This document shows, piece after piece, positions 724 to 60,214 of a stretch of DNA of 64,000 nt. The DNA comes from Amoebophrya sp. A120 (Eukaryota > Protista > Dinoflagellata), in contig CAJINV010000001.1 of NCBI GenBank assembly GCA_905178155.1, positions 999,311 to 1,063,310 on the forward strand. The letters run 5' to 3'. Under the pieces are notes generated by a model, which saw only the letters and a program-made list of their open reading frames with translations, did not search any database and was not told the DNA's origin. Numbering within the stretch: position 1 is the first letter of the stretch; every line of letters starts with the position of its first letter. Position numbers and translations under genes: made by a program.

Positions 724-3700
724 TTACTTTGCCTTCGCGGTAGAAGTTCCAGTTCCTCCCGCGGCGGTGTGCAGCAATCGAGCGTAGATTCCTTGTTCCA
801 GTTTCGCGAGTTCGTTATGGAAGCGCCAGGATAGAAATCGCTCAAGTTGAAATGAAATAGTTTGTCATGCATAAAATGCAACGCAAAAATTGCCTCTATT
901 GCAGAGGACGCAAGGGAGGCAGATTGTAGTGCTGGGGAGGGTCGGAAATTGGGCTGGTGATTAGCATCACAGAGGGGAGTCTCTTTGCCCTAAACAGCAG
1001 CACAAACTGCCCTCCGGTACGGACAACATTTGTCATGCATCGACTAGAAACTGCGGGTCCAATTGGTATCGATTTTATGCATTACAAGTTATTCCAACTT
1101 TTTCGATTTCGATCCTGACGCCTCCATATTCGTCGTGCGTTCCGTATTCCGCGATTTTTCCCTGCGCCAACACGAAAATACAGTCCGAAGCCCGAATCGC
1201 GGACAGCTTGTGGGTATCAAATGTAAAAATGTCTGGGTCTGGAAGAATGCAACTTGTCATGCTAATTCTGAAGCATGCAAAAATCTGTGTTGCATGATTA
1301 CCAAAAGTCGTCCAGTTTTGACCAAGTCCGGAGGGAGTTTCTCATGCAGGATAGGCATGAGAGAGATCGCGCAGAATCTGTCACGCTAGGTCCTGCATTC
1401 CAGACCTCATGGGTCATGTAAAAGCTGCATGACAAATCGCGCACTCTTCCAGATCCAGACATTTTTACAGTTGATAGTGGGCCACCGTGATCGTGATCAG
1501 GCCGCGATCCCGGCTCTGCTTGCGGTCCGTAATTCTGTCGATGGCCTGCTGCACTTCGCGCTCACTTCGGTTATCTAACGCCGAAGTGGCCTCGTCCAGC
1601 AGCAAGATTTTCGGGCGGCGGAGCAACGCCCGCGCGATCGCGATCCGCTGCTTCTGCCCCCCGCTGATTTTGCTGCCCTTCACCCCCAACTTCTCTTTCG
1701 TCCAGGACAGAATGCGCCCGCCGCGCGCGTTTTTCGCAGTCGGCGCTAAATCGTGGCTCTGCGTCTCCGCCGGCGCCTCGATGTCCACGGGAGCTGCAAG
1801 TCCGGCGTGGAATAAATTCACGTCAGCCTCCTCCCACACGTCTGCCTTCTTCTTCCTTCCGCCCCGCTTGTTCAGCGAGGTCCTCGACGTTCCCTGCACC
1901 ACTTTAATCGGGGGCTCCGCGGCTAAAAAGTCCAGGCAGGCCATCTGCGCGACCCGCTGCAGCTCCTCGCGGGTGACGGTGGTCGGAGCCGGGTGGCCGT
2001 AGAGCAAGTTTTCCAAAGCGGAAAGGTCGAACACGATGGGCTCCTGCCCCACGTACCCGATTAGATTCCGCCACTTCCGGAGCTGCACTTCCAGGGAGAG
2101 ATCGTGCGCCGCGAGCGGCGTGTCTGTTGGGGTGACCAGCAAGCAACCGTTCCGCGCCGGGTCATAGTGGAGCCGGATCTCCGGCGGCGGTTTTTTAGAA
2201 CTCGCAGTTGGAGTAGTTGTGGCATTTTTATCAGTAGAAGTAGACCCCTTGATGTTTTTTATTCCGTTTGCAGCAGTTTTGATGTTTGCATCATCATCTT
2301 TTTTCGCACCAACAGGTTGTTTATTTTCTTGCTGTTCATTTTTCCCTTTATTCACATTGCCTTTCTCTTTTCCCCCGCCCGCCGCGCTTTCTACCGGCGC
2401 ACAAGAACTGGTGGGAGAAGGCAGAGTAGGACTAGGACCACCAGCAGAGGTGCTGCTACCAGTTGCGATGGGAGGTGTTGCTGGATTTATTCGACTTTTC
2501 CTCGCCTCAGCCGATCCGTCGCCAGTGTCGTCGCCGGACTTTTTTATTTTGCTGCCCTTCTTGCTGCCGACAGATTTTTTGCTGTCCTTACTCCCCGACC
2601 GAAACAGCTTGCTCTTACTCCCGGACCGGGAGAGCAGTGCCCTCTCGTCCACGATGCAGTTCGGGTCGTAGAACCGGGCAAGCAGCGCAAGGATGCTGCT
2701 TTTCCCGCTGCCCGTTGGGCCGCAGATCCCGATGCTTTGCCCCGCGGTAAAGTGGAAGTTCTGCAGGTTCCGCAGCACCTCCGTGTTCGGCCGAGTCGGG
2801 TAGCGGAATCGCACCCGGTCATACTATCCCACAGAAAAGGAACGACCATAAGGCATATTTGTATATTTATATAAGTATGCAAAACGAAATGTATACTGTA
2901 AGAAAAAACTGTCATGGTCGGGCCCATAGCGTGCTATTTAGGACAATATTCGATTTTTTTGTTTTTCTTTTTTTTGCATTTTGCACCCATTCTGTCTTTT
3001 ATTTCTGTGAGATACATACTCCACCTTACCGACCTCCGGAAACGAGACCCGGGGTTTGTCCGGCAAGTCCAGCAGCTCCAGTGGCGAGCCCCGCTTCACT
3101 TTTCCCTGCGAAGCTTCATCTACGTCGATTCTCGGCTTGCGGTCGATCACTTTGAACAGGTCGTGCGCCGCGGTGAAGGCGCGCCCGGTGTCCGGCCCGA
3201 GGTGCACCATGCGGCCCATTTCGCCGGCCAGGTTGTTCATCATGTTCACCGCCAGCGCGATGCCGGATAGCCACGTGCCGATGTACTCGTTTTTGAAAAA
3301 GTCGAACACCTGGCTCGGGGTCTGGATGTAGGTTAAGTCGTACTGTTTCACCCCCACCGAGACGAAACCAATCACGACCGCCCAATTTACCAGCGGCCCG
3401 AGGAAGCTCTGCATGCTGAAGCCGAGCCCTAGGATGACCGCGTTCTTCAGGGCGTCCGCGTCCTTATTGTCGCGGTGGGTTTTCACGCACTCTGCGTACT
3501 TCCGCGCGAACATGGGCTCCGCGCCGGACAGCGCCCGCACCGCGCGGATGTTGTACAAGCACTCGGAGGCGTAGTGCCCGGCGAGGGTGAGTTGCGGCGT
3601 CACCGCGTCCGCGGCCAGCTGCCGCATCATGCAGGCCATGATCACCCCCATGGACGCGAAGGAAACCAAAATCAGCAGCAGCATCAGCTTATCAACTGCA

Positions 3701-6700
3701 AAAATGTCTCGGTCTGGAAGATTCTGACACTTGTCATGCACGTTTTGCATGAGCCATGATGTCTGTGATGCATACCCTAGCAGTACAGATTTTTTGAGGG
3801 CTTCTTGATGCCTATTCCGCATGAAAAATGCCTTCTCAGCGTAGCAAAACGAGCACTCCCTTTGCTACTTCTGCAATACAGATTTTTTTGGAATCCAAAC
3901 GCAGCATCACAAGTTGCATTCTTCCAGTCCCAGACATTTTTGCATTTCATACAGCTTCCACTGGTTGATACAGCCCCAAACCACGGTGACCAGCAGCAGT
4001 GCGGCCGCCTGGAAGTACTATTGAAAGGAAAAACTCCCCCTCCCCATATCGAAAAGGCATGTTTCCGCGAATTTGTGTTGCTGATTTGAGGTCGCAAATC
4101 ACATTTGTCTTGCAAGAAGACAAGTGCAAAAGCTTCCGCCATATTATCGAGGCGGTTTGTCATGCCGTTGGGCCTAAAGGGAGGCCGTTTGCCATGCTGA
4201 GCAACTAGACCCATACGCCCCCAGCTAGCCGGCGAATCTGGCCGCCATGCCTTTCTGCAACACAAATTTGTGTACCCAAATCCAGCATCAGAAATTTCGT
4301 TTTGATATGGGGAGGGGGGATTTTTCCTTTTGATAAGTACAGGGCGAGATTCGGGCCGCACACGTCCGCGACGTTCTGCGTGGACTTCGACAGCAGGGTC
4401 GAAAGCTGCCCCGGCGAGTGCTCCGGGTGGTCGAAAAAGGCGAGTTCCAGCTTCAGCATCGCCCGCCAGGTCTGCTGCCTTAGGCGGTAGGTAATGTTCG
4501 CGCCCGCGAACGCCAGCGCGGCCTGGCCGCCGACCACGGCTACCGCGTTCACCACAGCGGCCACCAGCATCTTCCAGCCAGCGTCGCGGACGCCCACGTT
4601 CACCTCGGGGGCCTCCCCCTCCATCGTACTGGCTTGCTCCTGCATGGCGTCGCGGAAGAAGGTGGAGATCAGGGGACCGTTGAAGCCCTGCGCGAGGGAA
4701 AAAACCAAGGCCAGCACCAGCAGCCACCGCTCGGCGCCCTGGTTCAGCAGGAGCAAGCGGAGCCAGGGCTTCTCGTAGGTCTTCAGCACCTCCTTCTGCC
4801 GCTCCTTCTCCTTCGCCTCGTCCGACTTCACCTCGTTCAGATTCTCCATTTTTTTCTTCTCCGTCGCCTCGTCAACGACCTTCGGGAGGTGCTTGTCCAC
4901 GACCTGGGCCTCAACCTCCCGCGAGGTCTGGCGAGATGAAGCATCAAACTCGCTCGACTTCCGGGCTCGCGTGGGCTTCCCGGCGGAGGACAAGAGGGGA
5001 GACGATGATCGAAGAGACGTTTTTCCTTGTTCCTTTGTCGACAGACGAATTTTTCCCATATCTTGCTCCTCTTGCCCACCTACCCCCACTCCTGCGTCGG
5101 ACGACCGGCCTTCGCGGTCCTCTTCCAACAGGGTGGCTAACGTCGATTTCTTCGGCTTCATCTCCGGGGTCGCCCTTTGACGTTCCTCCTCAACGATCGG
5201 CGTGAGGATTAACTGCAGACTCGCGGGTGCTGTTGCCTCCTCGGGCTGTTGATGTTTCTCGTCGGTATTCAACGAGGAGGAGGACGGCGCACCATCCTCT
5301 CCTGCACCAGCTACCTCCGCAGCCTTTTCAACATCTGGCGCAACTGCAGCTGCAACGCCCCCGGCCAAGAACTCCCGCGCACTTCTACTCTCGTCGTCCG
5401 TCTCGATGGCGTGGTAGTTTGTTCCCTCCAAATAATCTGCTCGCCCGACGATTGGAGCCGCGGTCGTGCTCTGCAGGTCGTTCGCCACGGTCAACTGGTA
5501 GTACTCGCCCTGCTTTGCCACCAGCTCTTTGTGCGTGCCGGACTCGACGACGCACCCGTTTTTGAGCACGTAAATTCTGTCACTGTTCTGCACGGTGCTC
5601 AACCGGTGCGCCACCGTGATCACGGTGAGATTCTCGGACGCACAAATGCGGTCGATGGTCGCCTGCACCAGCCGCTCAGACTCGTAGTCCAGCGCAGAGG
5701 TCGCCTCGTCCAGCACCAGCAGCCCCGGGCTCCGCACCAGCGCGCGCGCGATGGAGAGCCGCTGCTTTTGCCCCCCGGAGAGTTGCGCCAAGTTCCCGCC
5801 GGACACGAAGGTGTCTAGTCCGTCTGGCAGATTCCGGACCACCTCGCCCACCTGGGCCTTGTCGCAGATTTTCAGCAGCTTTTCGTCGGACACCAGCGCC
5901 GCCTGCTCCGGCTCCATGCCGAACAGTAAATTGTCACGGACGGTGCCGTGAAAAAGCACCGGTTCCTGGGACACCCAGCCGATGTGCTGCTTCAGGTCCT
6001 CCAGGTCCAGCCCGCGTAAGTCCTTGCCGTTGTAGGAGATCGACCCCTGGTCCACGTCGTAAAACCGCGCGAGCAGCTGCAGCACCGTGCTTTTTCCCGA
6101 CCCGGACTGGCCCACCAGGGCCACCTTCTGCCCCGGTTCCACCGAAAAGGAAAAGTTCCGCAACACTTTCTGGTCAGCACCAGCACCCTCTTCTCCGGTG
6201 CTTAGTGCCTTCGTCATCATGCCAGAGGACGGCGCGTCGACATGGTCAACTACATTATCAGTCCGCCCAGCCTGATTTTCCGTTTCCTTCTCGAAGCCCA
6301 CGGGAGTTCTCGGATAACTGAAACTCACATTCTTCGCCTCCACCCGGATGCCGCCTTGGGTGAGCAACTTCTCGGAGCCGTTCTGGATTACCAAATTTTC
6401 CTCCTGGGCCAGCTCGACCACCCATAAGAGGTTCGCCAGCGCAATGCGGCCGCGGCTGTAGGCCTCGATCCAGGGGAGCAGCATGAACATCGACACCGTG
6501 GACATCATCACACCCGCAAGGCCCTGGAAGATGTCCTGCAAACCTGGAAATGACGTGGAAGACGAGGAAGATAATGTGCTATATTTTGCGTATAGCTGTG
6601 AAGTGGCTCCTGTGGTGCGCCCACTACTCTATTAATGCAGCTCGAGTAATACTGAATTATAAAGCGAGGACTGCTATGCACGAGGGAGCAGCAGCCCAGT

Positions 6701-8339
6701 TACTTCTTATTATCAAAATTTATACCGTAATTGACGCCGAACAGTGTGAAGGTGCCGTCCGCGTGCAGCAAGTAGAGCCCGGCGAACACGAAGGTCAGCG
6801 CGAAGGACACCTGGAAGCCAAAGAAAATGAGCGCGAAGCCGAAGGCTTTCGTGACGCCGATCCGTTTTTGCTCGGTGCGGGCGTCGTCAAGCAAACCTGC
6901 GTAGCGCGCCGCGGTCTCCTCTTGCGCGTTGCACGCATGCACCGTGCGGATGTTCGCGAGAGACTCCTCCACGATCACGCCCGCCTGTTCGTAATTCGGA
7001 ACGGTTTTGGACAGTCCCGCGCGCGTATGAGAGTGCACAACTCCCCCTCCCTCTCTACTTTTGTCATGCAAAATACCAAATTCACCGTTTGCCTCTTGGC
7101 AACTTTTGCATGACAGGTTCATCTGGTAGATCAAACAACACTACAATCCTGGGTGAAATTGTCATGGAAAACCCGCATTCTCGCCGACGCTTGTATTTTT
7201 GCTGCTCATGCAACACAAATGAGGGGGAGGGGAAAAGGTTGTGCATTTTCATAGCGCGCGACCCGGATGTACATGGACATGCCGATGGCGACAAAGGACA
7301 CCATTGGGATGGCGACGAAGGCCATCGGCCAGCAGGCGAACACGGTGTAGCCGAGGCCGCCCACTAGCATGAAGATGTATGGATTGTAAAAATGTCTGGG
7401 TCTGGAAGATTTTGAGATTTGTCATGCTTGTCTGGCATGACCAAAAAGTTTGTGATGCGTGTCCAAGAAGAGGCCCTTTTGCCTGTCATGCGAAAACGCA
7501 GTTTGTCATGCGAAAAACGCAACAGCAAGAAGCGCAGATATTTCTCATGCTTGCCTGTGCATTACAGAGCACTCACCATTCCCAACGCTGCATTACAAGT
7601 TTCCAGACCCAGACATTTTTGCAGTTGATAAGATGGAAGCCACCGCCATTTGCAGCTTCATGCCGACCACCTCGGTGAGGTTCCCGATGTCCTCGTTTAG
7701 TCGGGTGGGGACCAGCAGCGCATTTTCCTTGTCGAACCAGCCCATGTCGAGCAGCAAGACGCTGCTGAAGTAGGCGCTGCGCCACTGGTAGCTGAGACTC
7801 TCGTTCGCCAGCCGCAGGTTCAGGGACGCGACGAAGCCGAACACGGTCGCGCCGAGGGCGAACACGAGGAACCAAAACAGCTTCGACCACAGCCGCGCGC
7901 CGATGTCGTCCGCCTCCGCGGTCTTCCAGGCCTCCATCGCGACACTGAGGGGCTCGGGCGGCTGAATCACCGGGACCTGCACCCTCCACAGCTCGGTCAT
8001 CGTGGCGAACCCGATAATCATGGGGGACGCCTGGCACAGGCCCTGCAGCAGCGCCCCGAGGCACCCGCACCACAGCATGCGGCGTTCCTTGGCGGTGGCA
8101 AACTTGAAAAAGCTTCCCAGCTTGATCTCCTCGGGATCGATCTTCCGAACCTTGTGATGATGCTTGGTCTTGGTCTCCTTCGCAAGCTGGTCAAAATTTT
8201 GACCAGTAGACCGATTTTCAACATCGTCCTCGGTCTCATCCAGAACGCCGACGGCGGTGTCTGCAACGGCGTCCAGCAGCGGCAGGGTCTCGTCATTTTC
8301 GCCTATCGTGGGCAAGTAGCTCCTGAGGACAGAGGACAT
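724..8339 (-). CDS. ABCB/MDR-type full-length ABC transporter (TMD-NBD-TMD-NBD), spliced
   Basis: Walker A motifs GQSGSGKS and GPTGSGKS, signatures LSGGQKQR and ISGGQKQR, Walker [11 protein letters not shown] in both NBDs. Removing 7 TIR introns plus a GT-AG intron (~6544-6726) gives continuous ...TVAHKLSAIR...[18 protein letters not shown]...; stop TAA at 724-726. Confidence 0.93.
816..1128. mobile_element. TIR introner (singleton type)
   Basis: TIR TATGGA(A/G)GCG(C/T)CAGGAT; DR TTCGT; removal gives GTHDE|LAKL. Confidence 0.9.
1215..1476. mobile_element. TIR introner family A
   Basis: TIR TATCAAATGTAAAAATGTCTGGGTCTGGAAG; DR GTGGG; removal gives TVAH|KLS. Confidence 0.95.
2825..3014. mobile_element. 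TIR introner (short TIR, AT-rich, old)
   Basis: TIR TATC(C/T)CACAGAAA; DR CATAC; removal gives KVEY|DRVRF. Confidence 0.85.
3690..3951. mobile_element. TIR introner family A
   Basis: Family A TIRs; DR CAGCT. Confidence 0.95.
4019..4335. mobile_element. TIR introner family B
   Basis: TIR TATYRAAAGGAAAAA...CCCCCTCCCCATATC; DR AGTAC. Confidence 0.95.
7026..7253. mobile_element. TIR introner family C
   Basis: TIR TATGARARTGCACAAC...CCCCCTC; DR GCGCG. Confidence 0.9.
7378..7630. mobile_element. TIR introner family A
   Basis: Family A TIRs; DR AGATG. Confidence 0.95.
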
Positions 8340-9249
8340 GATCTAGTACCTAGATGCCTGGAAAATGTAGATATAGAAAGAGTAGCCAAGGTTAAAGAAA
8401 CTCAGCAATCAAAATCTAAGACTGTGTTTAAAACTTATCGTCCCGACGTAAGTCGTTTCACTTTATTTTGATGGAAATGCATAAAAAATAAACCACAACG
8501 GTATAACAACAATGATATGCAACCAGTAATGCTTTCTTTGACATAAACGAGACACCTTTCACTTGCCGCCACAGAATCACCGTGCCAAGATCTGTCAAAA
8601 ATCAAAAGAAAAATAGAGTTTGGCTACCGAAAAAAACTTGACAAGAAGCCGACCTCCAACAGGCACTTCGGTTCCATTTCGGCTTCAGGTTTCTTCCAAA
8701 TGCAAATTGAAACATCAAATACAAATTTCCCGAACATGTACATTGGATCATCGGAATTTTGCGAGCACAATAGTTTGGATCATCGCAAGGAGTCGTGTTT
8801 AAAAATCTGTTTCACAAGAAACCACACGCATCCGACACCAGTGCGACCACCGATCTATCTTCTTGATCCTCTTCACATTGCGCAAAGCAAATGGAATCTT
8901 CTGTAAGTACCACGCCGATGCTGCGAGCAGATGAACGGAAAGGTAATTGAATAAAATAGACTTACTCCTGACCAGCACTACTTGCTCCGAGATGAAGATC
9001 CGTTTTGTTGGTGGAAACAAAATGTTTCTTGAAAAGGAAGGAACATGGGCACGTCCCTTGCTGCTTGCGAGGCTAGCCAGGAAAACCAGCTATGAACGTG
9101 GCGACCACGCGTGCAGCATGTAATGGTAATGAATTTAGAACACCATCCTCCCACGTAAGCGGTTTTTTCGTTTGTTTCAAATATGCGGTTTCTGGTCCAA
9201 TGTTCTGACTTTCAAACTCCTATATACTGCTTATGCGGCACTTCGGCTT

Positions 9250-12200
9250 CTAAAAGTCGGTGAAAATGGTTCTCAACCCTCCGCCAATCGCAGCTAGCAA
9301 GCGGCGCTTTTCTTGCCAGAACACCCGCTTTTTCTCGGCCGCGGTCAGCGGGCCGGGTGGCAAAGGGAAGGACGCCGTGTGCCCATTGTAGGAGTACCGC
9401 ACGGCTGGCTGCCCTTCAACACCGTCACCGTCTTCAAGTAGATCTCCCTCGTGCAGAAGTTGTTGTCCTTGATGTAGTCCTCTTCTACCTACGTCAGAAG
9501 TGGTTGCTGTCCTAGTACCACCAAAAATTTTACTACTATTCCCAGCGCTGCTCTCCTGCACCACAATCCGCAGGGGCAACGTGGAAGAACTTCCTTCCCC
9601 GGTGTCGTCGTCGAAAAAAGCAGCAGAGCTCTTCGCCAATTCGTCGTACAGAAACCCGGGTGGTAAGGCGACTTCCAAGAAGACCCGAGATGCAGTTGCA
9701 GCACAACTTGGAGCTGCATGCTTGTTCGAAGATCCTGTCATCTGGAGGGTGCTGCCAATGGACGCAGTTCCTGTAGAAGTACTAACGCTAGTACCAAACG
9801 CACCAGTCGGAGGTGGTGAAAAACTCGATGAGGATGAAAACTTCTCCTCGACCACCTCTGAACTTCGCAAAGCCCCAGAAAAGGCCCGAGGAGGCGGAAA
9901 TTTCGGTGCTGACGCGGAGTTCTCCTCAGCTTGCTGTACCTCCTCAATAGCCCCGGGGGTTTGAGTACTTCTAAATGAACTGCCCGCTGATGCTTCTCCT
10001 CCTCCTCCCGGTGCTATGTTCATGCCCGGATGAATACTGCTGGAGGCCGTGCTGTTCGTGCTATCGGCGGGCGACGCCGCGTGGAAAGGCTCTTTTTGCT
10101 CGGAACAAAGCGGTTCTGAAACTATTCCGCCGGCTGGCGCTTCCTCCTCTGGTTTGGTGCTGGACGCCATGATTCTTGCGGGCGGCGGTGGACCGACTTT
10201 CGGAAGTTCTTCGCTACCTGGAGGAGGTACTATTGGCTCAGCAGTTCTTGGCCCTTCTTGTTCACTATGCTGCGTTGAACTCGTAGTTGCGACCATTTCA
10301 ACACCTTGTTGCGAACTTCGTTCTCCGTTGCCACCAGCTGCCCCACCACTCGGTGCTGATGTACTATCAACAACCCTCGACGATGAAGCAGGTTCCTGCT
10401 CGACGCTTCTACTGGTAGAAGTACTAGTTCGACTTTCCTCCTTGGCCCCCGCCACAACTTGAACTTTCCGTGCGCCAAACTGCGTGAGCAAAAAATTTTC
10501 CGCGGCTTCCGGCTGCACCCGGCGCACGTTGCTGGTCCCTCGTGGTTTTTCTTCAGCAAGATCATTTCTTTCCAAATCCAACTCCTCCTCCCCCGACATC
10601 CACCGCAGCACTACCACTTCCTCGATTTGCAAACTGTGCTTGAAGCACCGCAGCACGTCGGGCCAATCCGAAAAGGTGCGCGTAAAGGTTTTCGAACTTA
10701 TTGCAGCTTTACTGCCACTGGCTTGATGTCCGGCTTCTGGTTCTTCTTGCAGTCCTCGTCCAGCTGAGCTACAATTGTCCTGCACTCCCGACGGAACCAT
10801 CGTGGTGACGAGGCAGATCTTGTCGCCGACCCGGAACCCCAAGCTCGCCGCGAACTTGGACACGCGGCGGCTTTGCTATGGATTGCAAAAATGTCTGGGT
10901 CTGGAAACTTGTAATGCTAAAAAGGAATGATAGACGCACTGCAATACGCAGCTTGCTATGCATGACAATTTTTTTGGCTGCCATGTGTTACGTATTCCGC
11001 ATCGCAAACTGCGTTTTTGCATGACAAGTAAGAATGCCGCTTCGTGCGTATGCAACACAAACTCTCGAGTCATCCCAGACAAGCATGACAAACTTCAATT
11101 CTTCCAGACCCAGACATATTCGCAATTCATATTTGCCGCGTCGTGCCCATGATGTCCATGCCCCAGCTGGTCTGCGTCGTTTCGCGCTGCAGCTTCAGCT
11201 ATCCTGTGAAAAAGTATCGCACTCGTACTAATTGCAGATATGCATGACAAATCCAACTTTCTACCTGAAATAGCATGACAAATTGCATTTTTGTTCTTGG
11301 GAAAATTTGTAATGCAATTTATACTAGTACGATAGTTTTGCAATGCATATCAGCACCCGGAGCGCCACCTGCTTCTTGGCCGAGACGTCGAGCATGCGCA
11401 TGTAGTGCACCTGCAGCATATCGGCCCGCTCCGGCATCCGCTTCACGTGGGTCAGCAGGTCCTGCGGTTCCAACAAGCCGCCGCGCATGGACGGCAGCAC
11501 CAGTCGCTCGCACCCGGGCACCACCGTCACAACTTGCTGCTCCAGCTGCTGTCTCCCATGCAAATCCTGGGTACACGTCTTCAGCACTTCGCGCAGCACT
11601 TATTACGATGAAAAATGCCCCCACCCCGGAATTTTCAGAAGTTTGTCATGCAAAGCTTCCAAATGAAAGCTTTTTGTCTTGCATAAAAGGATTGCGAGCG
11701 TTCCTGATACAGAATCTGGGTGCTCAAGGCGCCTTGTGTATAACAGATCCAGCTGCTGTTGGGCTACTTCGAAACACAAATTTGACCTCTTCAGCATGGA
11801 AAATTTGTGATGCTGAGATATGCAAGACGGGGAATGTTTCTGTTGGAAAGGTTTGCAATACAAATGCTGCCAAGCTGGGGCATTTTTCATTGTAATAGCA
11901 CTTTTTCGGGCAAGAAATCGACCCGATCCACCACGACTGCGGCGTTGGTGCCGACATTGTACACGTTGGGGCGGTGCAGAATCAGATTGATCACTTTTTC
12001 CCGGCCGAACACCTGCAAGATCCTTTCGGGGTCCGTTTCCCCGTTCGCGACGCGGATCACGTCATCCTTCTGCGGTCGGAACGGCTGCAACCGGGCATGC
12101 GCCTCGTTCCACCGAAAAAGTGCCTTGTCGCTGTAAATTTCCGCCATGAACAGCCGTGGGGTCCGGCTACTGCTCCCCTGAGGACCCGACTTCAGCTGCA

Positions 12201-50400: not shown

Positions 50401-50735
50401 TACAAACAACATCTGCATTTTTTTCCCGGTGAAAAAACGTCGTAGTTGATATGCATATCAGTTTAAAATCAAGCGACATGGGAAACAAGTAAAGAGAGCA
50501 AGTGCTGCACCTTGTCTTTGGTTTGCTTTTCTATTTCCTTTTGTATTGTCTCCAGCGCATCCTTGCAGTCGACGTTGTGGTCCGCCAATTCGGGTGTCTT
50601 GGTGTCAAATTCACCCTTCGCTTCACCCTTCAGTTTCTCGAACAGCGTTGTCAAAGTGGTGTACGCCGCGCCCGGAGCAGCCTGGACGAGCCCCGCCCCA
50701 GCAGAAGCGAGCAGCGCCCTGCGCGAAACCCGCAT
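47469..50735 (-). CDS. Secreted coiled-coil protein of a dinoflagellate-type family, spliced
   Basis: Signal-like N-terminus MRVSRRALLASAGAGLVQA; heptad-rich exons; C-terminal CKDYKSMYASRMEARK...EIDNLKKAKDAL; several GT-AG introns and 1 TIR intron. Confidence 0.7.
48134..48452. mobile_element. TIR introner family B
   Basis: Family B TIRs; DR TGGCG. Confidence 0.93.
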
Positions 50736-51297
50736 TGTATCCTGTCCTCTCAACTACCCGATAACTCTACCCCGAGCAACTGCCAATGCGGGGGTCTTCG
50801 AAATAAACGAGTAGTTGTAACAGTTGATTGTTGCGGGACGACCACACAAACTTGCAATGTGTTTTGAAAAAGGCAAGGAAAACGAAACAGTTGGATCTTC
50901 TGTCAGATCCCGGTTGATCGATCAGTGCGTCAACATAAGCACAGAAAAAATAAAGCACACTAAAAACGGCTCACAGAAGAGAACAACCTTGCCGCTTCAT
51001 CTTTATTGCCACCGTGCTTGCACTAGTTCCAAATTCCATAACCGAAAATGAGGTTAAAATGCAGAGCAGCTCACTGTACCCCTACGTGCTGCGCGGAAAA
51101 ATCCTTTCAGTCAGATCTTTAGATGTCGCGTCAAATGAGCCGCATTTCGAAACAACTCGTGAGGTCTTTAGATGTAAAGTTGTGCGCCAGTCGAGGTCTC
51201 GCTTTATTTTCCTAAATGATGAATGAGAACTTGCGATCAACAATGCCAAAGCGCGTCTTTTTCCACAAATATCAAAATCTGCTTTGTTATCCTATTT

Positions 51298-54277
51298 TCA
51301 CCACGTTCGCTTCCTTCGCCGCGCCGACTTCCGGTGTTTCGGAAGGGTAGCCGTCCGCCGGAGGGTTTCCCCCGACAGGCTGCTGGCCCGCCGCATCTCG
51401 TTTGGTAGGACCGTGCCGACAAAGGTCTCCAGCTCGTCGTACTGAACATGCAGACGCTGCAGTGCCTGCGACAGCTGCAGCGCTTCGAAGGGGGAGAAGT
51501 GGGACGCGACGTCCAAGTCGCGTCGCAGTTGTTGGACAAGCAGGTGGAGCAGGGGAGGGTGGGAAAACTGCACCTTGCCCATGGCATTTATGTACTTCAA
51601 AATATCGGCGGTGGACAGGAGCTGATCATCGTCTCGTCGTCCACCCGAAGCGGGTGGTAAAAATGCCGTTTCCGCCGCCCCGTACTGGCTGGTGCTGGCC
51701 GATGCTGAACCAGTACTACTACTAGAGAGCTGCTGTCCTCGTGGTCTCTCCTCGTAGCTATCTGCAGTTCCTGTGTTACCTCCGAGTGAAGGCGAACACA
51801 CAGCACGGCCTCGTCCGGGAGGCAGCCGCTGGAGTTGTAGTACACATCGGGAATGTAGCAAGTCTGCGATGCCCCGCAACAACTCCTCCTCGCAAACGTG
51901 GACCTTTCCGTATGCCTGGGCGACATTGACCCAGTCGGCCGTAGACACGAAGGTAAACTGGTTCCCGGATTATCGAATGCAAATAATGTGGCTGGGAAGT
52001 CCTCGTGTGGAAACTTCTGATGCTGAAATGCGGATGAGATCCCAGCTCTTGCAGCCAAGCATGACACGTTTTTGGACCGCTTTCTGATGCCCGGTACGCA
52101 TCACAGATTGCGCTTTCGCACGAGAAAGCAAGTGACTCTTTTGCTGCTCGTGCGTCTTTCATGAATGGAACACATGCATTTACAAGTTCCAACCCTGCAC
52201 ACCCTGAAATATTTGCAGCTGATACGGAAAACTCTTCCACCAAGTCCTCCAGCTCCTCTTCTTTCCGTTCCGCGGCCGTCCGTGTCTGCGCGGCCCGCCG
52301 GCGCAGCTTCCGCAACCCCTTCTGACTCTGGCACGGATCATCTTCCTGAGCAAAATTTATTCGAGTAGACAGGGTCGCGGAAAAGACGTCAGAGTCGGCG
52401 TGTCGTGATGGGGATGAGGATGCCCCGTCGGACAGTACGGTTTGCCCCTCCTGCGGCAGGAAGGAGCGGAACACGGGCCCGAAGTACTCCTTGAATAACT
52501 TCTCGTCCTTCACCTGGAACTTTGCCAGCCCCATCGCCAGATTCAGCACATGCTGGAAGGAGCAGTGGGAATTTCGAATCCCCTCCAGCATCCCGCGAGC
52601 CGCGTCCTGTTGCTTCACGCGCGCGCAAAGGCGCGCAATCAACACTTCGTTGACGACGCCGGCGCGGGCGAACGAGGTGATGGTCTGGCTCATAGCCGGA
52701 ATGTCGAACGCGTGAAGGTGCCGCCGAATCAGAATGCCCAAGCGGTCGAACACGTCCGTCGCGTGTTGCGACACACGAAACTTTGCAAAACCGTACGCGA
52801 GCTTAGATAACACGGTCGGAACGGCGGCCACGTCCCACACAGAACAACTCGTTGCACGAGGCTCGGTTTTGTTGTTCGTCGCACTGCTGGCAAAAGTACT
52901 TCTTGGTTTTCTGTTTCCCAGTAATGCCCCGTGATCGCTCCAAAGAAACCGATGCGCTTTCCCCCCGTACTGCGGGATGCAGAACGTCTCGCAGCTTTCC
53001 AGAAAGGCGGTGGGGTCCGCGAAATCTCGCAGACGGCACGCCACCCTATCTAACGCACCGCCGTCTTCTACCCGAAGTTTAGCCAACGCGTGCACCAGCT
53101 TCGCGCACTCGGGGACGGACAACCCTGTACAGTCTCGGAACCCGCCACGGAGAACACCATCGCGGAAAAGCCGCAGCACAGTGTTGAGCTGCAACACGGC
53201 CTCGTTATCTTTATGCGTTTCTCCGACAATCCGCTGCAGCTCGGCCAATCCCACGCAGGCATCCGCAATCTGCACCCGGTCCGCCTCGGTCCAGGTGGTT
53301 GTTGCGATTACGTTTTTCAGCCAGGGTATGTCGAAGAGCTCGGAGAAAATTTCCAGATTCGCACGTTCCGGATGTAGATTTCTTGTTTTATTCCGGTGTA
53401 AGGAATCCAAGCATCCTGCTTTCCTTTTCCAGTTCGAATACAGGGCGAAAACCTCGCTCCAAAACAAGGACGCTACTGCCGATGCGGAGGAAGAAGCGCC
53501 AGCGTCGGTCGCATTGGTGCAATTTACAGCATGTTGTAAGAACTGTTTGCGCATGAACCCCTCGCCCAGGGTCGTATCATACAAAGAAAGCCGGACGCAG
53601 TGAGCCCAAAAGTCAATTCCGAACTGCTGGCTCATCTCGGCCGCGTCTGGATCATTGACAAGCGAATCTTGCACCTTCAGCACCTGACAGTATGTGAGTG
53701 TAGTAGAAATTGCGGTGTAACTGATCGCGCCTCATCGTGAATACGTTAGAAGAACCTGATGAAAACGCACGCGTATACGTACCTGGTTGAAGAAGTGCAA
53801 GTAGGACTCCGCGCTCACTCCACTTTTGTCCCACTGTAGTGTCACAAGTAGAAAGTGCAGTCCCGCCCTGGCGTCGTATGCCGATGTGAAAAAAAGTTCG
53901 CGGAACCGACCCTGCAGCTTCTTCCAAAACGATTGATCTATCACTCCGGCCTTGTTTCCCGCGTGTGCCTCCCGCGCAAGCTGGGCGACGTTTTTGATTT
54001 CGCTAGGCAGCGTAGCTATGAACTGGTCCACACGGGAGGCGGGGTTTGCTGGCGTAGCCGTCGCTTGCCTGGACGAAGCCAAGCTCCGGTGCCCCGCTCC
54101 GGCCTTTGCGCCCGTCTCCTCGCAGCGGTGCTGCTTTGCAGCTTCCCTCGCCTGCAAGTAGCGAAGGTACTCCACTGCATCGCGACGGGCTTCGGGGGTG
54201 ACATGTGCCGCTGTACTAAAGTTACGGCGCCTCCACGGCATGCGGCCACGCGCTGCGGCGCGATGTCTCTGCAACAT
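51298..54277 (-). CDS. Helical-repeat (HPR/OPR/RAP-associated-like) organellar RNA-binding protein with putative mitochondrial presequence
   Basis: Repeated units LSKLAYGFAKF, MSQTITSFARAGV, VLNLAMGLAKFQVKDEKLF, WVNVAQAYGKV and ILKYINAMGKV; Arg-rich N-terminus ending RRNFST; one GT-AG intron (~53686-53781) and one TIR intron. Confidence 0.65.
51971..52224. mobile_element. TIR introner family A-like (diverged)
   Basis: Ends TATCGAATGCAAATA / TATCAGCTGCAAATA; DR CGGAT/CGGAA; removal gives EEFS|GNQFTFVSTADW. Confidence 0.85.
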
Positions 54278-55337
54278 GTCGAATAAGGCCACAACGCGGT
54301 GGCTTTCCGATCATTTTTTTCACTGCGTGGAGAAACCTCGCTTAACTAAGTGGGCTCACTTCCACAGACTCACCTACAGAAACGCTCCCTTCCATTGGTT
54401 GTAACGCATGAGAGGGGGGAGGGTCTGAAGAGGACGCAATACAACACAGCGCAATTATAATTGTTCACAAACAAAGCGATCGCGTTTCGTATCTCGAGCC
54501 TCACGGAAACACGAGTAGTGTGTGTTTGGGACAGATCGCTGCAAGTTCTACAAAGGAAGAACTCTTCGACAAATTATTTGTGTCTCCAGGCTGACAGACG
54601 CGAATACAAAGGACCTCGGATCAAGAACTGCATCGCGGATTTATTTCAGAAAAAATAAAATGGATAAAGTCACAGGTGCAACCGAATAGCTCTATCCGGT
54701 TGATACACGAGAAGAAGAAAAACCGAAGGCACAGGGAGCAGCATACTTAATACCGATAAAGCACGGAGCGAAGGAGCCGGGTTCGTGGGCGTTCACAAAA
54801 CGGACCGCATGAACTAAAACAGGAACGTTCCACCTGTCAAACTGGACAAATCCAGCGCACTAAGCGTGTAAACTCGCACGTCCCCAAGGATTCTAAGCAC
54901 ATCTGACCCAGCACACTTGCAAGGTCTAAAACCCGACACGAGCTCTTCATCTTTTTATCACGGGAAACCATAGACTCAAATTACACAGCTGCAACCTTAT
55001 CAAAACTATCGAAACAACACGCGCTATCTTCTGTACTGTAGTAAAACCATTGCTATCAGAGGAAAAAAGAACTTATACCATTGCTATCTGAACTACGGAA
55101 AAACCTTGAACTTCTGCTATCTGAACTACGAACATGAAATCTGAACTACAACTAAGTACGTAAAAATGAAAAAAATAAAATGAAAAAATAAAACGGTCTT
55201 CAACTCGGTGTCAAGTAAGGCCACGAAAGTTTGCTTGGAAAGTGCGCACCCAGTGGTCAAGTGCTGCTTCCTCTCGGGTGTGCTGTGACACGGGCGGAAA
55301 GTGGGTGTACTACCAAAAATCTTCAAACCTTCAGCAC

Positions 55338-58300
55338 TCAAAAGCCCTTCTTCGCGGAATCCAAAATGCAATCGCAGTCGTCGCCGGTCTTCTTGCTGAC
55401 CATTTTGTTGGACTTGCTATCCAGGATGCAGTCGCAGTCGTCCTTCTTTTTCTGCGCCTTCTCTTTCTGCACCACCATGGCCACGGTCTTCGAGGGTTGC
55501 TTGGAATCCAAAATGCAATCGCAGTCGTCTCCGGTCTTCTTGCTGACCATCTTGTTCGACTTGCTATCCAAAATGCAGTCACAGTATCCTGATTGAAAAC
55601 GTCCCCACACCAGAGCTCAAGATGGGAATTCTGCTAGACAAATCACACAGCTTTGGTTGTTTGGCATGACAGGTTTATTTCCCTCGTAGTGTGATCCTGT
55701 TTAGCTAGCTCAGAAGCATCACAGATCTAGCATAGCATGCTGATATCAGCATGACAAATCCCAAAACACGATTAGCAAATGCTTCTCACAGGGCTCCGCA
55801 TGAGAAACCATTTTGGCATGCAGAATTGCATGACAACTCTGGGGTGAGGATGTTTTTTCACGGGATACGCAGTCGTCCTTCTTCTGCTTCCTCGCCAGCA
55901 GTGGCTTTTTCTCCGCTGGCTTGCTCGGCGTGGCGCGATATGCATTGCAAATGTCGATCTGGGTCATGTCGCAGATCATATCTTTGCGAGATCATTAGTC
56001 ATGCCGGTCTGGCGTGAAGAGGACTCCGAGTTTTGTATTCCGTGGCTTCCTCGAAGAAATCTGTTGTTGCCTGTCCTGCAAATAAAGAACGTTCAACTAC
56101 ATTTCCGCAGCGTTTTTTGCTGACCAATCCCTGATTTATGCAACATCACAGAGCTTTTCCGAGCAGGACCCAGATGAACTATTTACACTTGATACGCGGA
56201 CCTGCAGGAAGGACTCCTCGTCCGAGCTGAGGATCTCCAGCGCGTCCTTCAACCCCGCGATCTCGGCCTCGCGCCGCTTCTGGCGCTCCTCGTAGCTCAT
56301 CGCCTTGTTGGCGCAGGCCTCCATGACCCCCTTCAAAAAGTCCGTGGCCGCCTGCAGCGCCTTGTTGGCCTCGGTTAAATCCTCGGACATCATGCCGATG
56401 CTCTCCTTCACGCCCGCCTTCTCCTGCGTCTTGCCCTTCACCTCGGCCTCCTTGGTGGCTTTCGCGACCTGGGACTCCTGCATAAACTTCTCATACTTCT
56501 CCACCGCGTCCGACTCTGCAGCCTCCGTCTCCTGCTTCAGCTTCTCAAAGTCCTCCTGGGCGGTCTCCAGAATGCTGATGATGGTGTTCGCGGCGTCGGT
56601 CTGCGGCTGCTGCAGAAAGCTGGTGCTCTTGCCGTAGAACTCGGACAAGGCGGTGATGGCACCGTTGATGGCCTCGACGGACTCAGCACTGTCCTTGATC
56701 ACCGCGTCATTCTCCTTCTTTTCCTATCAAATGCAAAACTACTGTCTGGTTCCGGAAAGTTGCAGTGCTCGAAGGCGTACTAGATGCTCAGCAAACTGCA
56801 ATATTACCCGACCAAGCATGACAAGTTTATGAGCTTCTGCGCTGTGGTGCGCATAATTCCGCATGGCAAGATGCGCAAGACCGGCAAGACGGTGCTTTAT
56901 TCGTGCATTTATTGCACCAAAGAACTCAAAGTCGTGTGAAATGAGCATGAGAAATTATTCGCTATCTTCCAGACCACCAAGACATGCTTTATTGCAATGC
57001 ATATTTCCTTCCCACGGATGGCCGTGCGCTCCTTGACGTCCGCGGCTAGCTCGGCCAACTGCGCCTCCAAATCGCTGATCTCCGTGCCCAGCTGCGCGAA
57101 CTTGGCCTCGGCGGCGTCGACCCGGCTCTGCAGCTTCTTGGACTCGCCCTTGCGGAGCTTCAGGTCCTTGGTGCCCTTCTCCTTGTCGGCCTTGCACTTG
57201 GCCTCCTTGGAAGCCTCCTTCGCCGCCTCGTCTTCCAACTTTGTGATCATCTCCTTAATCATGCCACGTACCTTCACAAACGGGTCGGCCTGGGCGCTGT
57301 TGGCGGCCTGGATCAGCGCAAATTGGTTGTAGGTGCGCCCCAGTCGGCGGAGCATCAGGCTCACCTTCGCGCGCTTCTGCGTCTCCTCGGAACCAACCTC
57401 GTCGGAAATCTGAAATTATAACCAAAGGGATTTTTATATGGTGGAAGCGAATTGCGATTAGAACTTCCCACAGGTAAAAAAAAAATTTTAAATTCAAATG
57501 CAATGAGCATGCCGTGGGTCTAATCTTCATGCCCTATCATCATATGCAGCGTCTGAAAAAAATGAGGAAGATGTAAATCGCAACACTTTATGACCGCAGT
57601 GATCGCTCAACGTGGTCTGTCAGATAAATTTCCAATACCTGCAAGAAGGATTCGCCGCCGAACTTGCCACTGAGGATCTCGATCGCCTGCCCGAGGGCGC
57701 CGGACTCCTGGGTGGCTTCCTCCTTCCGTGCGGCCCAGCTCTTGGCCTTGGAGTCGCACTCGGCCTTGGTGTTGGCCAGCTCCTCCGTGTCGGACTTCAG
57801 CACTTCCTCGGCGGACGCGAGGTCGCCGCCCGCGGTCTTACCCGCGGCCTCGGCCTTGGCCGCGTTCTCCTTGGCTGCTTCCATTTGTTCGGTTTTGCTG
57901 GTCTCCTGATTCTTCAAATCCTGCATCAGCAGCTCAAACTCGTGGCGGGCCTTGAGATCTTTTTCCCGAATACCAGCCAGAACCTCGGCGTTCTTCTCCT
58001 GCATGCCCTGAATCGCGTCCAAAGTTTATGGAGATGAACAAAACTGCCTCTTCGATAAGAAAGGAAGAGATTCTTTAGATTTGCCAATATTTTGTTTCCG
58101 AACTTCTTCATTATTCAATGCGAGAACAAAAGTTCATCGTTGGTCTCTCGTGTTGAACAAGGAAAACTACTCATGTTAATTTTAAAATACAACCCGCAAG
58201 ACAAAAGATTTCGCAACTATTATAACAGTTCCGTGGGTGATGTAGTTCTCGTTAAACTTAAAAGCAGTTGTTTTCAGTCGCATAGAATTCCGCCGGACTT

Positions 58301-60214
58301 GCTCTGGTAGCTGGACGACACTGCTTGCGGCTGGCCCAGTATGGCATTCTCAACCGTTACACTCTGAACTGTCACATGAATTTGTCACGCAAGACTACCT
58401 TAAGCCGCCAGATGATCAAGCGGCTTCGCATGACAAATCCCCGAGAAGCGAAGCAGCATCCAAGTCTGTGCCAAATCTGTGATGCGAAAGCAGCAAGCTT
58501 GCCCTACTTTTGGCTGTTGCTGTTCTTGCATCACAAATTCATGGAACAGTTGAGAATGCAACAGTTGAGAACGCCATACCCAGACGGAGCTCGTTCGACT
58601 CCTCCAGGAACGCCTTGATCTTTTGTTGGCTCTCCGCGTCCATCGCAACTGACTCGATGATGGTGGACAGTGCCGTGACGGCGTTCTGGGCTTCCCGAAC
58701 CGCCTTGCTGGACGCGATTCCGTCCGTCTGCGTGAAGGACAGGGATCGCTTCAGGACGGAGTATGCCTTCTGCAGCATGGTGTCGGCCTCCACTAGCTCC
58801 GCCTCTTCCTTTTGAAACGTCGCGTGGGCCTCCTTGCGTTTTCTATGCAGGGAAAATCCAACGACAATAAAAGTCATGCCGAACTGTAGCATGTGCCTTA
58901 ATCAACTCGAAGTAGAGTATACTACGCCTCATTATCATTTGATCCAGATTGTTCTGCTTACAGCTAGTGCTCCGCCCACGCACAAAGACCATGCGGTGCA
59001 GAATACACTTGTATCTCTATGCCGTTGGATTTCATTTTTCCCTTTGCGTACTCATCAGCAGCCTTTGTTTGCTCGCCCTGCAGTGTGGCAATCTCCGGAG
59101 TCAAAGTAGCAACCTGGAGGGAGAGTTGATGATGAGACTTTTAGATTTACAGCTGTTGGCACTCACTGTACTGCAAGTAGATCGTCGTAATTTCTTGCCC
59201 GATAATCATCCATCTCTTTCTGCTACATGTTTTTTATTCTGACAATCACAGTAGTTCTAGTTTCAATAGTACTACTTATATGCTGTTTCACTTTTTATTT
59301 CCCTATGAATAAAACTAGCGCAAAATAAATCTCAAGACCTCGTTCGCGAAGCCGGAGGCCTTTGCTGCTTCGTTCTCCACAGTTGCTTTTAACTCCTCAA
59401 CCTTCTCCCCGCCGTACTTCACGTCCGCTTCTCCTTCCGTGGTCGTTTTGATGCACCAATTCTCGAATTCCTCGGCCTCTTTGTCGCCGTCGGTAATTTC
59501 CTGTTCCACCTTCGTCTTCATGTCCGTGAGTAGAGAAATCACTTTTTTGATGCCGCTGTTGCCCGTATGGATTGCAAAAATGTCTGGGTCTGGAAGATTG
59601 CAACTTGTCATGCTAAATCCGACTCATGCAAAAATCTGTGTTGCATGAGTGCAAAAAGCTGCCCACTTTCGGCCAACTTGGGAGGGAGTTTCTCATGCAG
59701 GATAGGCATGAAAGAGACCTCGCAAGCTCTGTCATGCTAGGTCCCGCATTCCAGACCTCAAGGGCCATGGAAAACCTGCATGACAAGTTCACACTCTTCC
59801 AGACCCAGACATTTTTACATTTGATAGCCCGCTTCCGCCCGACTTTTCAGCGCGACCACGGCGCCCGTCGCGCCGGACGCGACGAGAATATCAAAATGAA
59901 AAATCCCCCCTCCCCATATCAAAACGGAAATCTGTGATGCAGATTTGTTGTCACAAATCAGCTTTGTAATGCTACACGGGAAAAGATGCGGACTGTAGTG
60001 CTGGGTGGCGTGGGGAAGCCTTGCATGTTCAGCATGATAGGAGGCAGCTGGGAGTGGGAAACAGCATGACAAATTGCCTGCAAATGAGGCCACGACTGCG
60101 GCTCTTGGCCTTCTAGCATGACAAGTCGATTTGTGACCTCAAATACAGCATCACAAATTTCGTTTTCGATATGGGGAGGGGGGATTTTTCCTTTCGATAG
60201 AGAACACGACGCAT
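55338..60214 (-). CDS. Secreted coiled-coil protein (dinoflagellate 'SFLQ'-type) with Cys-repeat C-terminal tail, spliced
   Basis: MRRVLVASGATGAVVA...SGIKKVISLLTDMK...FENWC, QPQAVSSSYQSKSGGILD, ADPFVKVRGMIKEMI, SYEERQKRREAEIAGLKDALEILS and several SFLQ motifs; 7 TIR introns plus GT-AG introns. Confidence 0.8.
55355..55584 (-). repeat. Coding tandem repeats encoding DDCDCILDS(K) units
   Basis: Four CDCILDS units and two KSNKMVSKKTGDD linkers. Confidence 0.9.
55585..55867. mobile_element. TIR introner family D
   Basis: DR CACAG/CGCAG (TGT/TGC, synonymous). Confidence 0.92.
55939..56194. mobile_element. TIR introner family A-like (diverged)
   Basis: DR CGCGA/CGCGG (synonymous); frame restored. 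Confidence 0.85.
56725..57003. mobile_element. TIR introner family A-like (diverged)
   Basis: TATCAAATGCAA...TTGCAATGCATA; DR TTTCC. Confidence 0.88.
58027..58284. mobile_element. TIR introner (highly decayed)
   Basis: Ends TATGGAGATGAACAAAACTG / TATGCGACTGAAAACAACTG; DR AAGTT/GAATT; removal gives SGGI|LDAI. Confidence 0.7.
58340..58578. mobile_element. TIR introner (singleton type)
   Basis: TIR TATGGCRTTCTCAAC; DR CCCAG; removal gives LRLG|QPQA. Confidence 0.9.
59566..59826. mobile_element. TIR introner family A
   Basis: Family A TIRs; DR GCCCG. Confidence 0.95.
59889..60199. mobile_element. TIR introner family B
   Basis: DR GAGAA; inserted after the fifth codon of the gene. Confidence 0.95.

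What the first reader, a model, noticed from the sequence alone, without database searches (positions are those of the whole stretch)
1215..59826. Elements appear to be removed regardless of orientation
Closely related family A bodies occur one way at 1215, 14121, 41131, 45231 and 59566 and reversed at 18420, 23706, 34499 and 39152. All host genes are on the minus strand and stay intact. Spliceosomal signals (donor, branch point, acceptor) are polar, so the working signal must be the symmetric TIR or hairpin.
Basis: partly seen in the sequence, partly recalled or inferred. Interest (0 to 1): 0.72.

Follow-up and report, generated by a model that had tools for sequence, protein, structure and literature searches.

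The report
Transposon introns removed in either orientation
Small transposon copies sit inside genes facing either way, and RNA contigs lack them exactly in both orientations; they match the known introner elements of the parasite Amoebophrya, and the cell likely reads their mirror-image ends, by a still unproven mechanism.

Summary
Nine family A copies (80-95% identical) lie 5 forward and 4 reversed, each with TAT-N7-AAA terminal inverted repeats and a 5-bp direct repeat, in minus-strand genes. Deleting element plus one repeat rebuilds long ORFs, up to 4506 codons across 14 elements. RNA contigs (one sample) show exact L+5 removal for 4 of the 9: two forward (45231, 14121) and two reversed (34499, 18420). 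Five were not covered and efficiency was not measured. Another assembly gives 13 versus 11 orientations. The elements match the introner elements described for Amoebophrya A120 (Farhat 2021). What stands out is that 41 of 46 calls cannot be read G[TCA]..AG. No RNA-level pairing bias was seen (G-U 202, A-C 191). One mismatched repeat puts the 5' cut upstream of TAT. Best guess: a U1-less spliceosome reading the TIR ends (0.5); a Euglena-like non-spliceosomal route is 0.35.

The parts
1215..1476 (.). Family A element, forward, 262 nt, repeat GTGGG; interrupts the H-loop of the second nucleotide-binding domain of an ABC transporter
   Evidence: only L+5 removal rebuilds the H-loop stretch against the gene's first domain (score 154 vs 143 for +/-3 nt and 89 or less otherwise); no bridging RNA piece shown
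14121..14381 (.). Family A element, forward, 261 nt; repeat copies differ at one base (TCCGC/CCCGC), which fixes the cut register at k<=4
   Evidence: RNA contig piece ends at 14116, as predicted for k 0-4 and not k 5; skipped length 1109 = 266+410+268+165
18420..18844 (.). Family A element, reversed, 425 nt (about 160-nt internal insert), in a TauE-family gene
   Evidence: 1901-nt RNA contig reproduced exactly only if this element is removed; 2331 if kept
23706..23970 (.). Family A element, reversed, 265 nt
   Evidence: ORF 590 codons when removed vs 401 when kept; no RNA laid
34499..34813 (.). Family A element, reversed, 315 nt (internal duplication of the left subterminal part)
   Evidence: joint 34493->34814, skip 320 = L+5, one contig, depth 3.1, 37 nt on the short side, 1 of 4 runs; ORF 4506 vs 2550
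39152..39417 (.). Family A element, reversed, 266 nt
   Evidence: ORF 4506 vs 3588; within the stretch laid but not bridged
41131..41391 (.). Family A element, forward, 261 nt, in the same ORF as the reversed copies 34499 and 39152
   Evidence: ORF 4506 vs 3975; not bridged
45231..45491 (.). Family A element, forward, 261 nt
   Evidence: joint 45225->45492, skip 266 = L+5, in 4 of 4 runs of one sample, depth 23-75
59566..59826 (.). Family A element, forward, 261 nt
   Evidence: lies in a 117-codon minus-strand frame after removal; no RNA laid
816..62979 (.). 36 further TAT..ATA elements with 5-bp repeats (45 in all, 12,701 nt, 19.8% of the window); clusters B, C, D, E also hold both orientations
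   Evidence: repeats exact in 35 of 45, one mismatch in 7, two in 2, three in 1
724..8342 (-). ABC transporter gene(s) (ABC_tran, ABC_membrane) carrying 7 elements
9250..16151 (-). Gene with 8 elements and one GT-AG intron (15533-15697); 1388-codon frame
   Evidence: 4641-nt RNA contig skips 717, 564 and 1109 nt exactly as predicted
17140..21196 (-). TauE-family gene with 5 elements and three GT-AG introns (19291-19482, 19680-19818, 20213-20433); 663-codon frame
25539..43326 (-). 4506-codon ORF of unknown family rebuilt by removing 14 elements of both orientations
   Evidence: no Pfam hit on 10 segments; no Atlas hit on one segment
44744..45862 (-). 3' part of a polyadenylated transcript with element 45231 and a GT-AG intron (45688-45862)

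Best explanation
These are miniature transposon-like elements with inverted-repeat ends and a 5-bp duplication that sit in either orientation in coding sequence, and RNA contigs lack exactly the element plus five bases in both orientations; the removal is likely done on pre-mRNA by a modified, U1-less spliceosome that would read the identical ends. Shown: anatomy, both orientations, L+5 removal in four family A copies, retention in a DNA-like run, free choice of flanking bases, and a 5' cut at least 1 nt upstream of TAT (one element). Inferred: insertion by a cut-and-paste transposase making a 5-bp stagger; the two cuts are placed at a fixed distance from the TIRs so that one repeat copy leaves with the intron. 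The likeliest register starts the intron one base before TAT (N-U-A-U, like the G-U-A start of 4 of 5 canonical introns found here) and ends it four bases past ATA. Pairing of the arms would bring the ends together, but its fine detail appears not to be under selection. The body's direction is irrelevant because both ends, and even the internal motif layout, are mirror images.
For: L+5 joints and contig arithmetic. The same contigs lack GT-AG introns and carry poly(A), while DNA-like run X5 keeps the element ends next to exons. ORF and H-loop restoration. 13 vs 11 orientations for family A in another assembly. No arm polarity. Amoebophrya keeps U2, U4, U6 and 83 of 89 spliceosomal proteins but no U1 was found (PMC7789003 section 10). 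Fritillaria's TIR-derived non-canonical introns are spliced by the U2 spliceosome (review passage; preprint passage). Weak hints for the register: k<=4 at 14121; repeats reading NNAGG 10 of 226 vs 4.6 expected, antisense 2 (p 0.027, one of nine tests); all nine commonest A120 non-canonical boundaries in Farhat Table S4 begin N-T (aligner-placed, so weak).
Against: No lariat, branch point or snRNA dependence was tested. 41 of 46 window calls cannot be read G[TCA]..AG at any register; the broad class is not enriched (32 of 227 vs 26.7). 12352, with an all-T repeat, is removed exactly. No G preference at repeat position 5 or 1 (77 and 67 vs 70.8). Deviations in the terminal TAT are equal at 5' and 3' ends (4 vs 3 in 110 coding-called elements), which a donor-only role would not predict. 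RNA evidence comes from one sample's contigs, labelled RNA by a guess, and the explicit reversed joint is a single low-depth contig.
Confidence: 0.5

Rival explanations
1. A spliceosome-independent route, as proposed for Euglena nonconventional introns: the paired TIRs, or a protein bound to them, guide an endonuclease and ligase that cut at fixed distances and release the element.
For: No requirement for G at either end; no 5'/3' polarity in the arms; predicted arm pairing at positions 11-20 exceeds 0.5 in 95% of 217 elements; folding z -4.4 and -4.8 for one forward and one reversed copy; U1 not found. Euglena precedent: paired motifs needed, circles released, machinery unknown.
Against: No G-U over A-C excess (202 vs 191, p 0.61); sense and antisense fold equally (-99.7 vs -99.9 kcal/mol, p 0.88); arm positions 4-7 pair in only 38-76%; three elements skipped in RNA contigs (2825, 11200, 20815) have low predicted in-register pairing (0.29, 0.13, 0.0). 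Mild excess of strict GT..AG-readable sites (17 of 227 vs 9.6, p 0.03). These tests lose power if arm variants are inherited and orientation is random.
Confidence: 0.35
2. The RNA joints are reverse-transcriptase jumps between the 5-bp direct repeats across a stable hairpin (falsitrons), and the elements stay in the mRNA.
For: Exon-embedded introns seen only in cDNA sequencing are documented (abstract of PMC8240250); direct repeats drive template switching. All RNA data here are cDNA-derived contigs.
Against: Retention would break conserved proteins: all nine family A copies carry stops in all three minus-strand frames, one splits the ABC H-loop, and 14 lie in one 4506-codon frame. Single contigs skip eight (4641 nt) and four (1901 nt) elements together, including weakly paired ones.
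Confidence: 0.05
3. The elements are excised from DNA in part of the life cycle, or the RNA comes from element-free alleles.
For: Exact restoration of the pre-insertion site is what precise DNA excision would give. X1-X4 are only guessed to be RNA.
Against: DNA-like run X5 keeps element ends joined to exons at the same sites (table 8; its joint table was truncated). The element-free contigs also lack GT-AG introns and carry poly(A). The RNA exons match the window with no other letters.
Confidence: 0.04

Closest known systems
Introner elements (IEs) of Amoebophrya sp. A120 (Farhat et al. 2021, PMC7789003; read: abstract, sections 10, 11, 12, 16, passages, supplement legends and Table S4 rows)
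   Same: IR starting TAT, seven variable bases, then at least three A; 3-5 nt direct repeats (5 bp in Fig. S19 legend); about 240 nt mean length of non-canonical introns; about 17% of the genome (19.8% here); non-canonical boundaries; co-oriented gene blocks; hairpin proposed.
   Different: Nothing tested differs. The paper's text does not treat element orientation (4 main-text hits for 'orientation', all on genes; 2 of 3 supplement hits seen, also on genes; supplement figures not visible) and leaves the cut position unknown. The host's identity here is inferred from this signature, not from a label.
Bidirectional introners of Polarella glacialis and Aureococcus anophagefferens (Roy et al. preprint 10.1101/2020.10.14.339549, passages; Huff et al. 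2016 not held, known only through that preprint)
   Same: TIR elements with target-site duplications that create introns in either orientation without changing the mRNA.
   Different: They take G[TCA] and AG sites from the element end or the duplication, so target sequences are constrained, and all classes favour one orientation. Here the repeat is nearly free and family A is balanced (18 vs 15 over window and loci).
Euglena nonconventional introns (PMC12501133, passages; review PMC11282704, section 6)
   Same: MITE-like, terminal inverted repeats, flanking direct repeats, no GT-AG, coexisting with canonical introns.
   Different: Their code is N3-CDG...CH'G-N5-6 followed by an exonic purine, and they leave as circles. 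The TAT-N7-AAA ends here do not match it, and no circle or lariat was tested.
Fritillaria borealis non-canonical introns (review PMC11282704 section 6; preprint 10.1101/2025.08.15.670264, one passage)
   Same: TIR transposon-derived introns with non-GT/AG ends, tolerated genome-wide.
   Different: Preferred AG-AC/AG-AT ends and shown U2-spliceosome dependence; here no preferred dinucleotide and no such test.
IS3EU/GingerRoot DNA transposons (PMC10045372, passages)
   Same: TA..TA termini.
   Different: Usually 6-bp duplications, against 5 bp here; no transposase was found, so this is a lead only.

Membership tests
Amoebophrya A120-type introner element | IR begins TAT, seven variable nt, then three or more A | tested here: met
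   Consensus TATCAAATGCAAA; 40 of 40 window ends found without requiring TAT have it; A at 11-13 deviates 1 in 120
Amoebophrya A120-type introner element | 3-5 nt direct repeat at the exon/intron borders | tested here: met
   5-bp repeat exact in 35 of 45, at most one mismatch in 42 of 45
Amoebophrya A120-type introner element | Repeated families, non-canonical boundaries, removed in RNA | tested here: met
Amoebophrya A120-type introner element | Host is Amoebophrya | not tested
   No tool named the organism; inferred from the element signature, co-oriented genes and eukaryotic gene structure
U2-type spliceosomal intron | GT/GC(/GA)..AG boundaries | tested here: not met
   5 of 46 window calls and 32 of 227 overall can be read so, against 26.7 expected by chance
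U2-type spliceosomal intron | Branch point and lariat intermediate; snRNP dependence | not testable with these tools
   Only assembled contigs covered the genes; raw-read runs X8, X9 had no exon cover
Polarella/Aureococcus bidirectional introner | Both orientations make introns | tested here: met
Polarella/Aureococcus bidirectional introner | Splice sites supplied by element end and a constrained duplication | tested here: not met
   No G requirement at repeat positions 1 or 5; all-T repeat at 12352 is removed exactly
Euglena-type nonconventional intron | N3-CDG ... CH'G-N5-6 | purine signature | tested here: inconclusive
   No formal motif scan run; the arm consensus does not show it, and the exact cut is unknown
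Euglena-type nonconventional intron | RNA pairing of the ends is required | tested here: inconclusive
   Arms can pair but no selection signature
Euglena-type nonconventional intron | Released as full-length circles | not testable with these tools
   needs raw RNase R-treated reads
MITE (non-autonomous TIR transposon) | TIRs, fixed-length duplication, short non-coding body, many copies | tested here: met
MITE (non-autonomous TIR transposon) | Cognate autonomous transposase | not tested
   No whole genome held; no element over 900 nt was sought in the loci
IS3EU/GingerRoot | TA..TA termini with 6-bp duplication | tested here: not met
   Termini fit; duplication is 5 bp

The most novel reading that the evidence does not exclude
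Amoebophrya runs a second, spliceosome-independent mRNA repair system that recognises the transposon end motif TAT-N7-AAA itself, perhaps through a domesticated TIR-binding protein, and cuts at a fixed distance regardless of orientation, flanking bases or fine base pairing. It would make any insertion of these transposons into an exon silent.
Probability: 0.25. Interest if true: 0.9.

Novelty: already known. Interest (0 to 1): 0.45.

Why it matters
More than 60% of introns in Amoebophrya A25 and A120 are non-canonical, U1 snRNA was not found, and how they are removed is open (PMC7789003). The elements are known, but three points narrow the question and were not found in the text read or in searches. 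Removal is exact (L+5) in both orientations. The flanking bases are nearly free. Elements whose two repeat copies differ give a natural ruler for the true cut site, which is usable genome-wide with existing RNA reads. A transposon that is spliced out whichever way and wherever it lands can invade exons at little cost, which would explain a fifth of this window being such elements.

Tried and rejected
No whole genome was held, so no transposase or snRNA search was possible. No run was on record as an RNA holder; raw-read runs X8 and X9 gave no exon cover, so splicing efficiency by orientation was not measured. In one search the DNA-like run swamped the joint table (1520 rows not shown); most of the 4506-codon gene had no cover, so five mismatched-repeat elements (33746, 35705, 37624, 38803, 41450) could not be used as rulers. 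Removal of L+2 or L+8 keeps the frame but is rejected by the RNA lengths. G-U/A-C bias, sense/antisense folding and arm polarity tests were all null. The terminal TAT is more conserved than the inner TIR (13 of 477 vs 88 of 1590 sites, p 0.011), but not more so in coding-called than uncalled elements (p 0.39), so it cannot be assigned to splicing. The call at 47373-47746 was set aside as probably false (11 of 20 paired, no typical body); it is included and left out of 55, 62, 64 and 70. No match in viral contigs. No Pfam hit on 20 of 25 segments; no Atlas hit. Earlier scan notes: nothing returned. Huff et al. 2016 was not held.
Full report
OBSERVATION. The window holds 45 elements bounded by terminal inverted repeats (TAT, seven variable bases, AAA; mirror image at the other end) and a 5-bp direct repeat. 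Together they cover 12,701 nt, 19.8% of the window. A 46th call (47373) was set aside as probably false. The scan gave 61 raw hits against 3-5 in three shuffles. They are 80-95% identical, and the forward copy 1215 is closest to the reversed copies 18420 and 34499 (95%), so orientation does not follow lineage. Clusters B, C, D and E also hold both orientations.

HOST GENES. Removing each element plus one repeat copy in silico gives eight ORFs over 340 codons, all on the minus strand. The longest has 4506 codons and crosses 14 elements, among them two reversed and one forward family A copy. All nine family A copies have stops in all three minus-strand frames. For six of the nine, removal of L+5 (or L+2, L+8) gives the longest frame. 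For 1215 that test does not discriminate, but only L+5 rebuilds the H-loop stretch of the ABC domain when compared with the gene's own first domain. For 45231 the frame gain is small but RNA decides. 59566 rests on a 117-codon frame; another removal length gave a longer frame. Pfam confirms ABC-transporter and TauE domains on the minus strand (5 of 25 segments hit).

RNA. No run was on record as an RNA holder; four contig sets from one sample (X1-X4) are guessed RNA. They behave as mRNA: they lack GT-AG introns, and one ends in non-templated poly-T at 44744. Explicit joints: 45225->45492 (forward copy, skip 266 = L+5, 4 of 4 runs, depth 23-75) and 34493->34814 (reversed copy, skip 320 = L+5, one contig of depth 3.1, 1 of 4 runs). 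A 4641-nt contig skips 717, 564 and 1109 nt between its listed pieces, exactly the sums for eight elements (including forward 14121) and one 165-nt GT-AG intron. A 1901-nt contig is reproduced to the base only if reversed copy 18420, three other elements and three GT-AG introns are removed. This assumes that a 167-nt loose end belongs to it; predicted bin depths of 49.4 and 45.4 match the observed 49.4 and 45.1. Seven observed piece ends match predicted L+5 joints. The DNA-like run X5 keeps element ends joined to exons. So 4 of 9 family A copies are shown removed, two per orientation; five had no bridging RNA. Raw-read runs X8 and X9 did not cover the exons, so efficiency is unmeasured.

ELSEWHERE. 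Its best family A matches are 85-94% identical to the window's; no shared exon was found, so it may or may not be the same strain. Of 286 distinct element calls, 181 got a gene strand from a codon model trained on the window (40 of 42 loci with several calls were concordant; not RNA-checked). Family A was 13 versus 11, B 10 versus 19, C 4 versus 10, D 0 versus 5, E 2 versus 2. Viral contigs gave no match.

WHERE IS THE SIGNAL. In transcript orientation the 5' arm and the reverse-complemented 3' arm do not differ at any of 28 positions (227 elements). An internal motif GCAT(G/C)A is 16-fold enriched in bodies and laid out as a mirror image, with equal counts on both strands. The direct repeat is nearly free: 5 of 46 window calls and 32 of 227 overall can be read G[TCA]..AG, against 26.7 expected. 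The arms can pair (positions 11-20 above 0.5 in 95% of 217 elements of up to 340 nt). But mismatches show no G-U bias (202 vs 191), positions 4-7 pair in only 38-76%, sense and antisense fold equally, and three elements skipped in RNA have weak predicted in-register pairing. These null results lose force if arm variants are inherited and orientation is random. The terminal TAT is more conserved than the inner TIR (p 0.011), equally at both ends and in coding-called and uncalled copies.

CUT SITE. Identical repeats hide the cut. At 14121 the copies differ at one base, and the RNA keeps the downstream copy's fifth base, so the intron starts at least one base before TAT. Starting exactly one base before gives N-U-A-U, like the GTA start of 4 of 5 canonical introns found here. 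Weak hints point the same way: strict GT..AG-readable sites number 17 of 227 against 9.6 (p 0.03), mostly from repeats NNAGG (10 vs 4.6, antisense 2; one of nine tests). The commonest A120 boundaries in Farhat Table S4 all begin N-T and the A25 ones TT, but aligners placed these within ambiguous repeats. Against it, G is not preferred at that position (77 vs 70.8).

A symmetric signal is required, but that does not exclude the spliceosome. An inverted repeat shows the same polar sequence at each end in both orientations, and Polarella and Aureococcus introners splice in either orientation with near-canonical sites. What is unusual here is the lack of any dinucleotide rule.

COMPARISON. The anatomy matches the introner elements described for Amoebophrya A120: TAT, seven variable bases, three or more A; short direct repeats; about 17% of the genome; U1 snRNA not found; mechanism open (PMC7789003). 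The organism is inferred from this match, not from a label. I found no statement on element orientation in that paper's text or in searches; supplement figures S19-S25 were not visible, and Huff et al. 2016, Henriet et al. 2019 and the final Roy et al. 2023 paper were not read. Gozashti et al. 2025 report TIR-flanked A120 introners with integrase-like ORFs (passages). Euglena and Fritillaria give the two precedents for mechanism.

VERDICT. A real feature of an already described element class. Orientation-independent exact removal is well supported (about 0.9). The mechanism is undecided: modified spliceosome reading the TIR ends 0.5, non-spliceosomal 0.35, reverse-transcriptase artefact 0.05, DNA-level 0.04. 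Interest 0.45, mainly because mismatched repeats make the cut site directly testable.

Noticed in passing
window 25539-43326 (-): A 4506-codon ORF with no Pfam hit on ten segments and no Atlas hit on a 1018-aa segment; barely covered by the RNA contigs laid. Two 40-50-nt stretches near 36757 and 42320 match other long transcripts, hinting at paralogues.
   Followed up: partly
element bodies, window and loci L001-L160: Motif GCAT(G/C)A occurs about 17 times per kb in bodies against 1.1 elsewhere, in mirror-image layout, in 42 of 46 window calls and 178 of 181 locus elements; possibly transposase-binding subterminal repeats.
   Followed up: partly
window 18600-18765 and L002 1337-1475: The internal insert of element 18420 recurs at 94% identity in another locus: a second repeat nested within the element.
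   Followed up: partly
window 31290-31690: Element 31070 carries a unique insert of about 400 nt with no match in the window or the fetched loci.
   Followed up: partly
window 40749-41074: One end reads TAC instead of TAT, yet its removal is needed to join the 4506-codon frame.
   Followed up: partly
all element ends: TIR positions 4-10 come in a few variants (for example TATCAAATG, TATGCATTG, TATGGATTG) mixed freely between the two ends of one element, so these positions often do not pair.
   Followed up: partly
window 63965-64000: A further left TIR at the window edge; its element runs off the end.
   Followed up: no
5-bp repeats, 226 elements: Repeat positions 1, 3 and 5 differ in base make-up from flanks (p 0.011, 0.008, 0.029), suggesting a weak target preference.
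   Followed up: no
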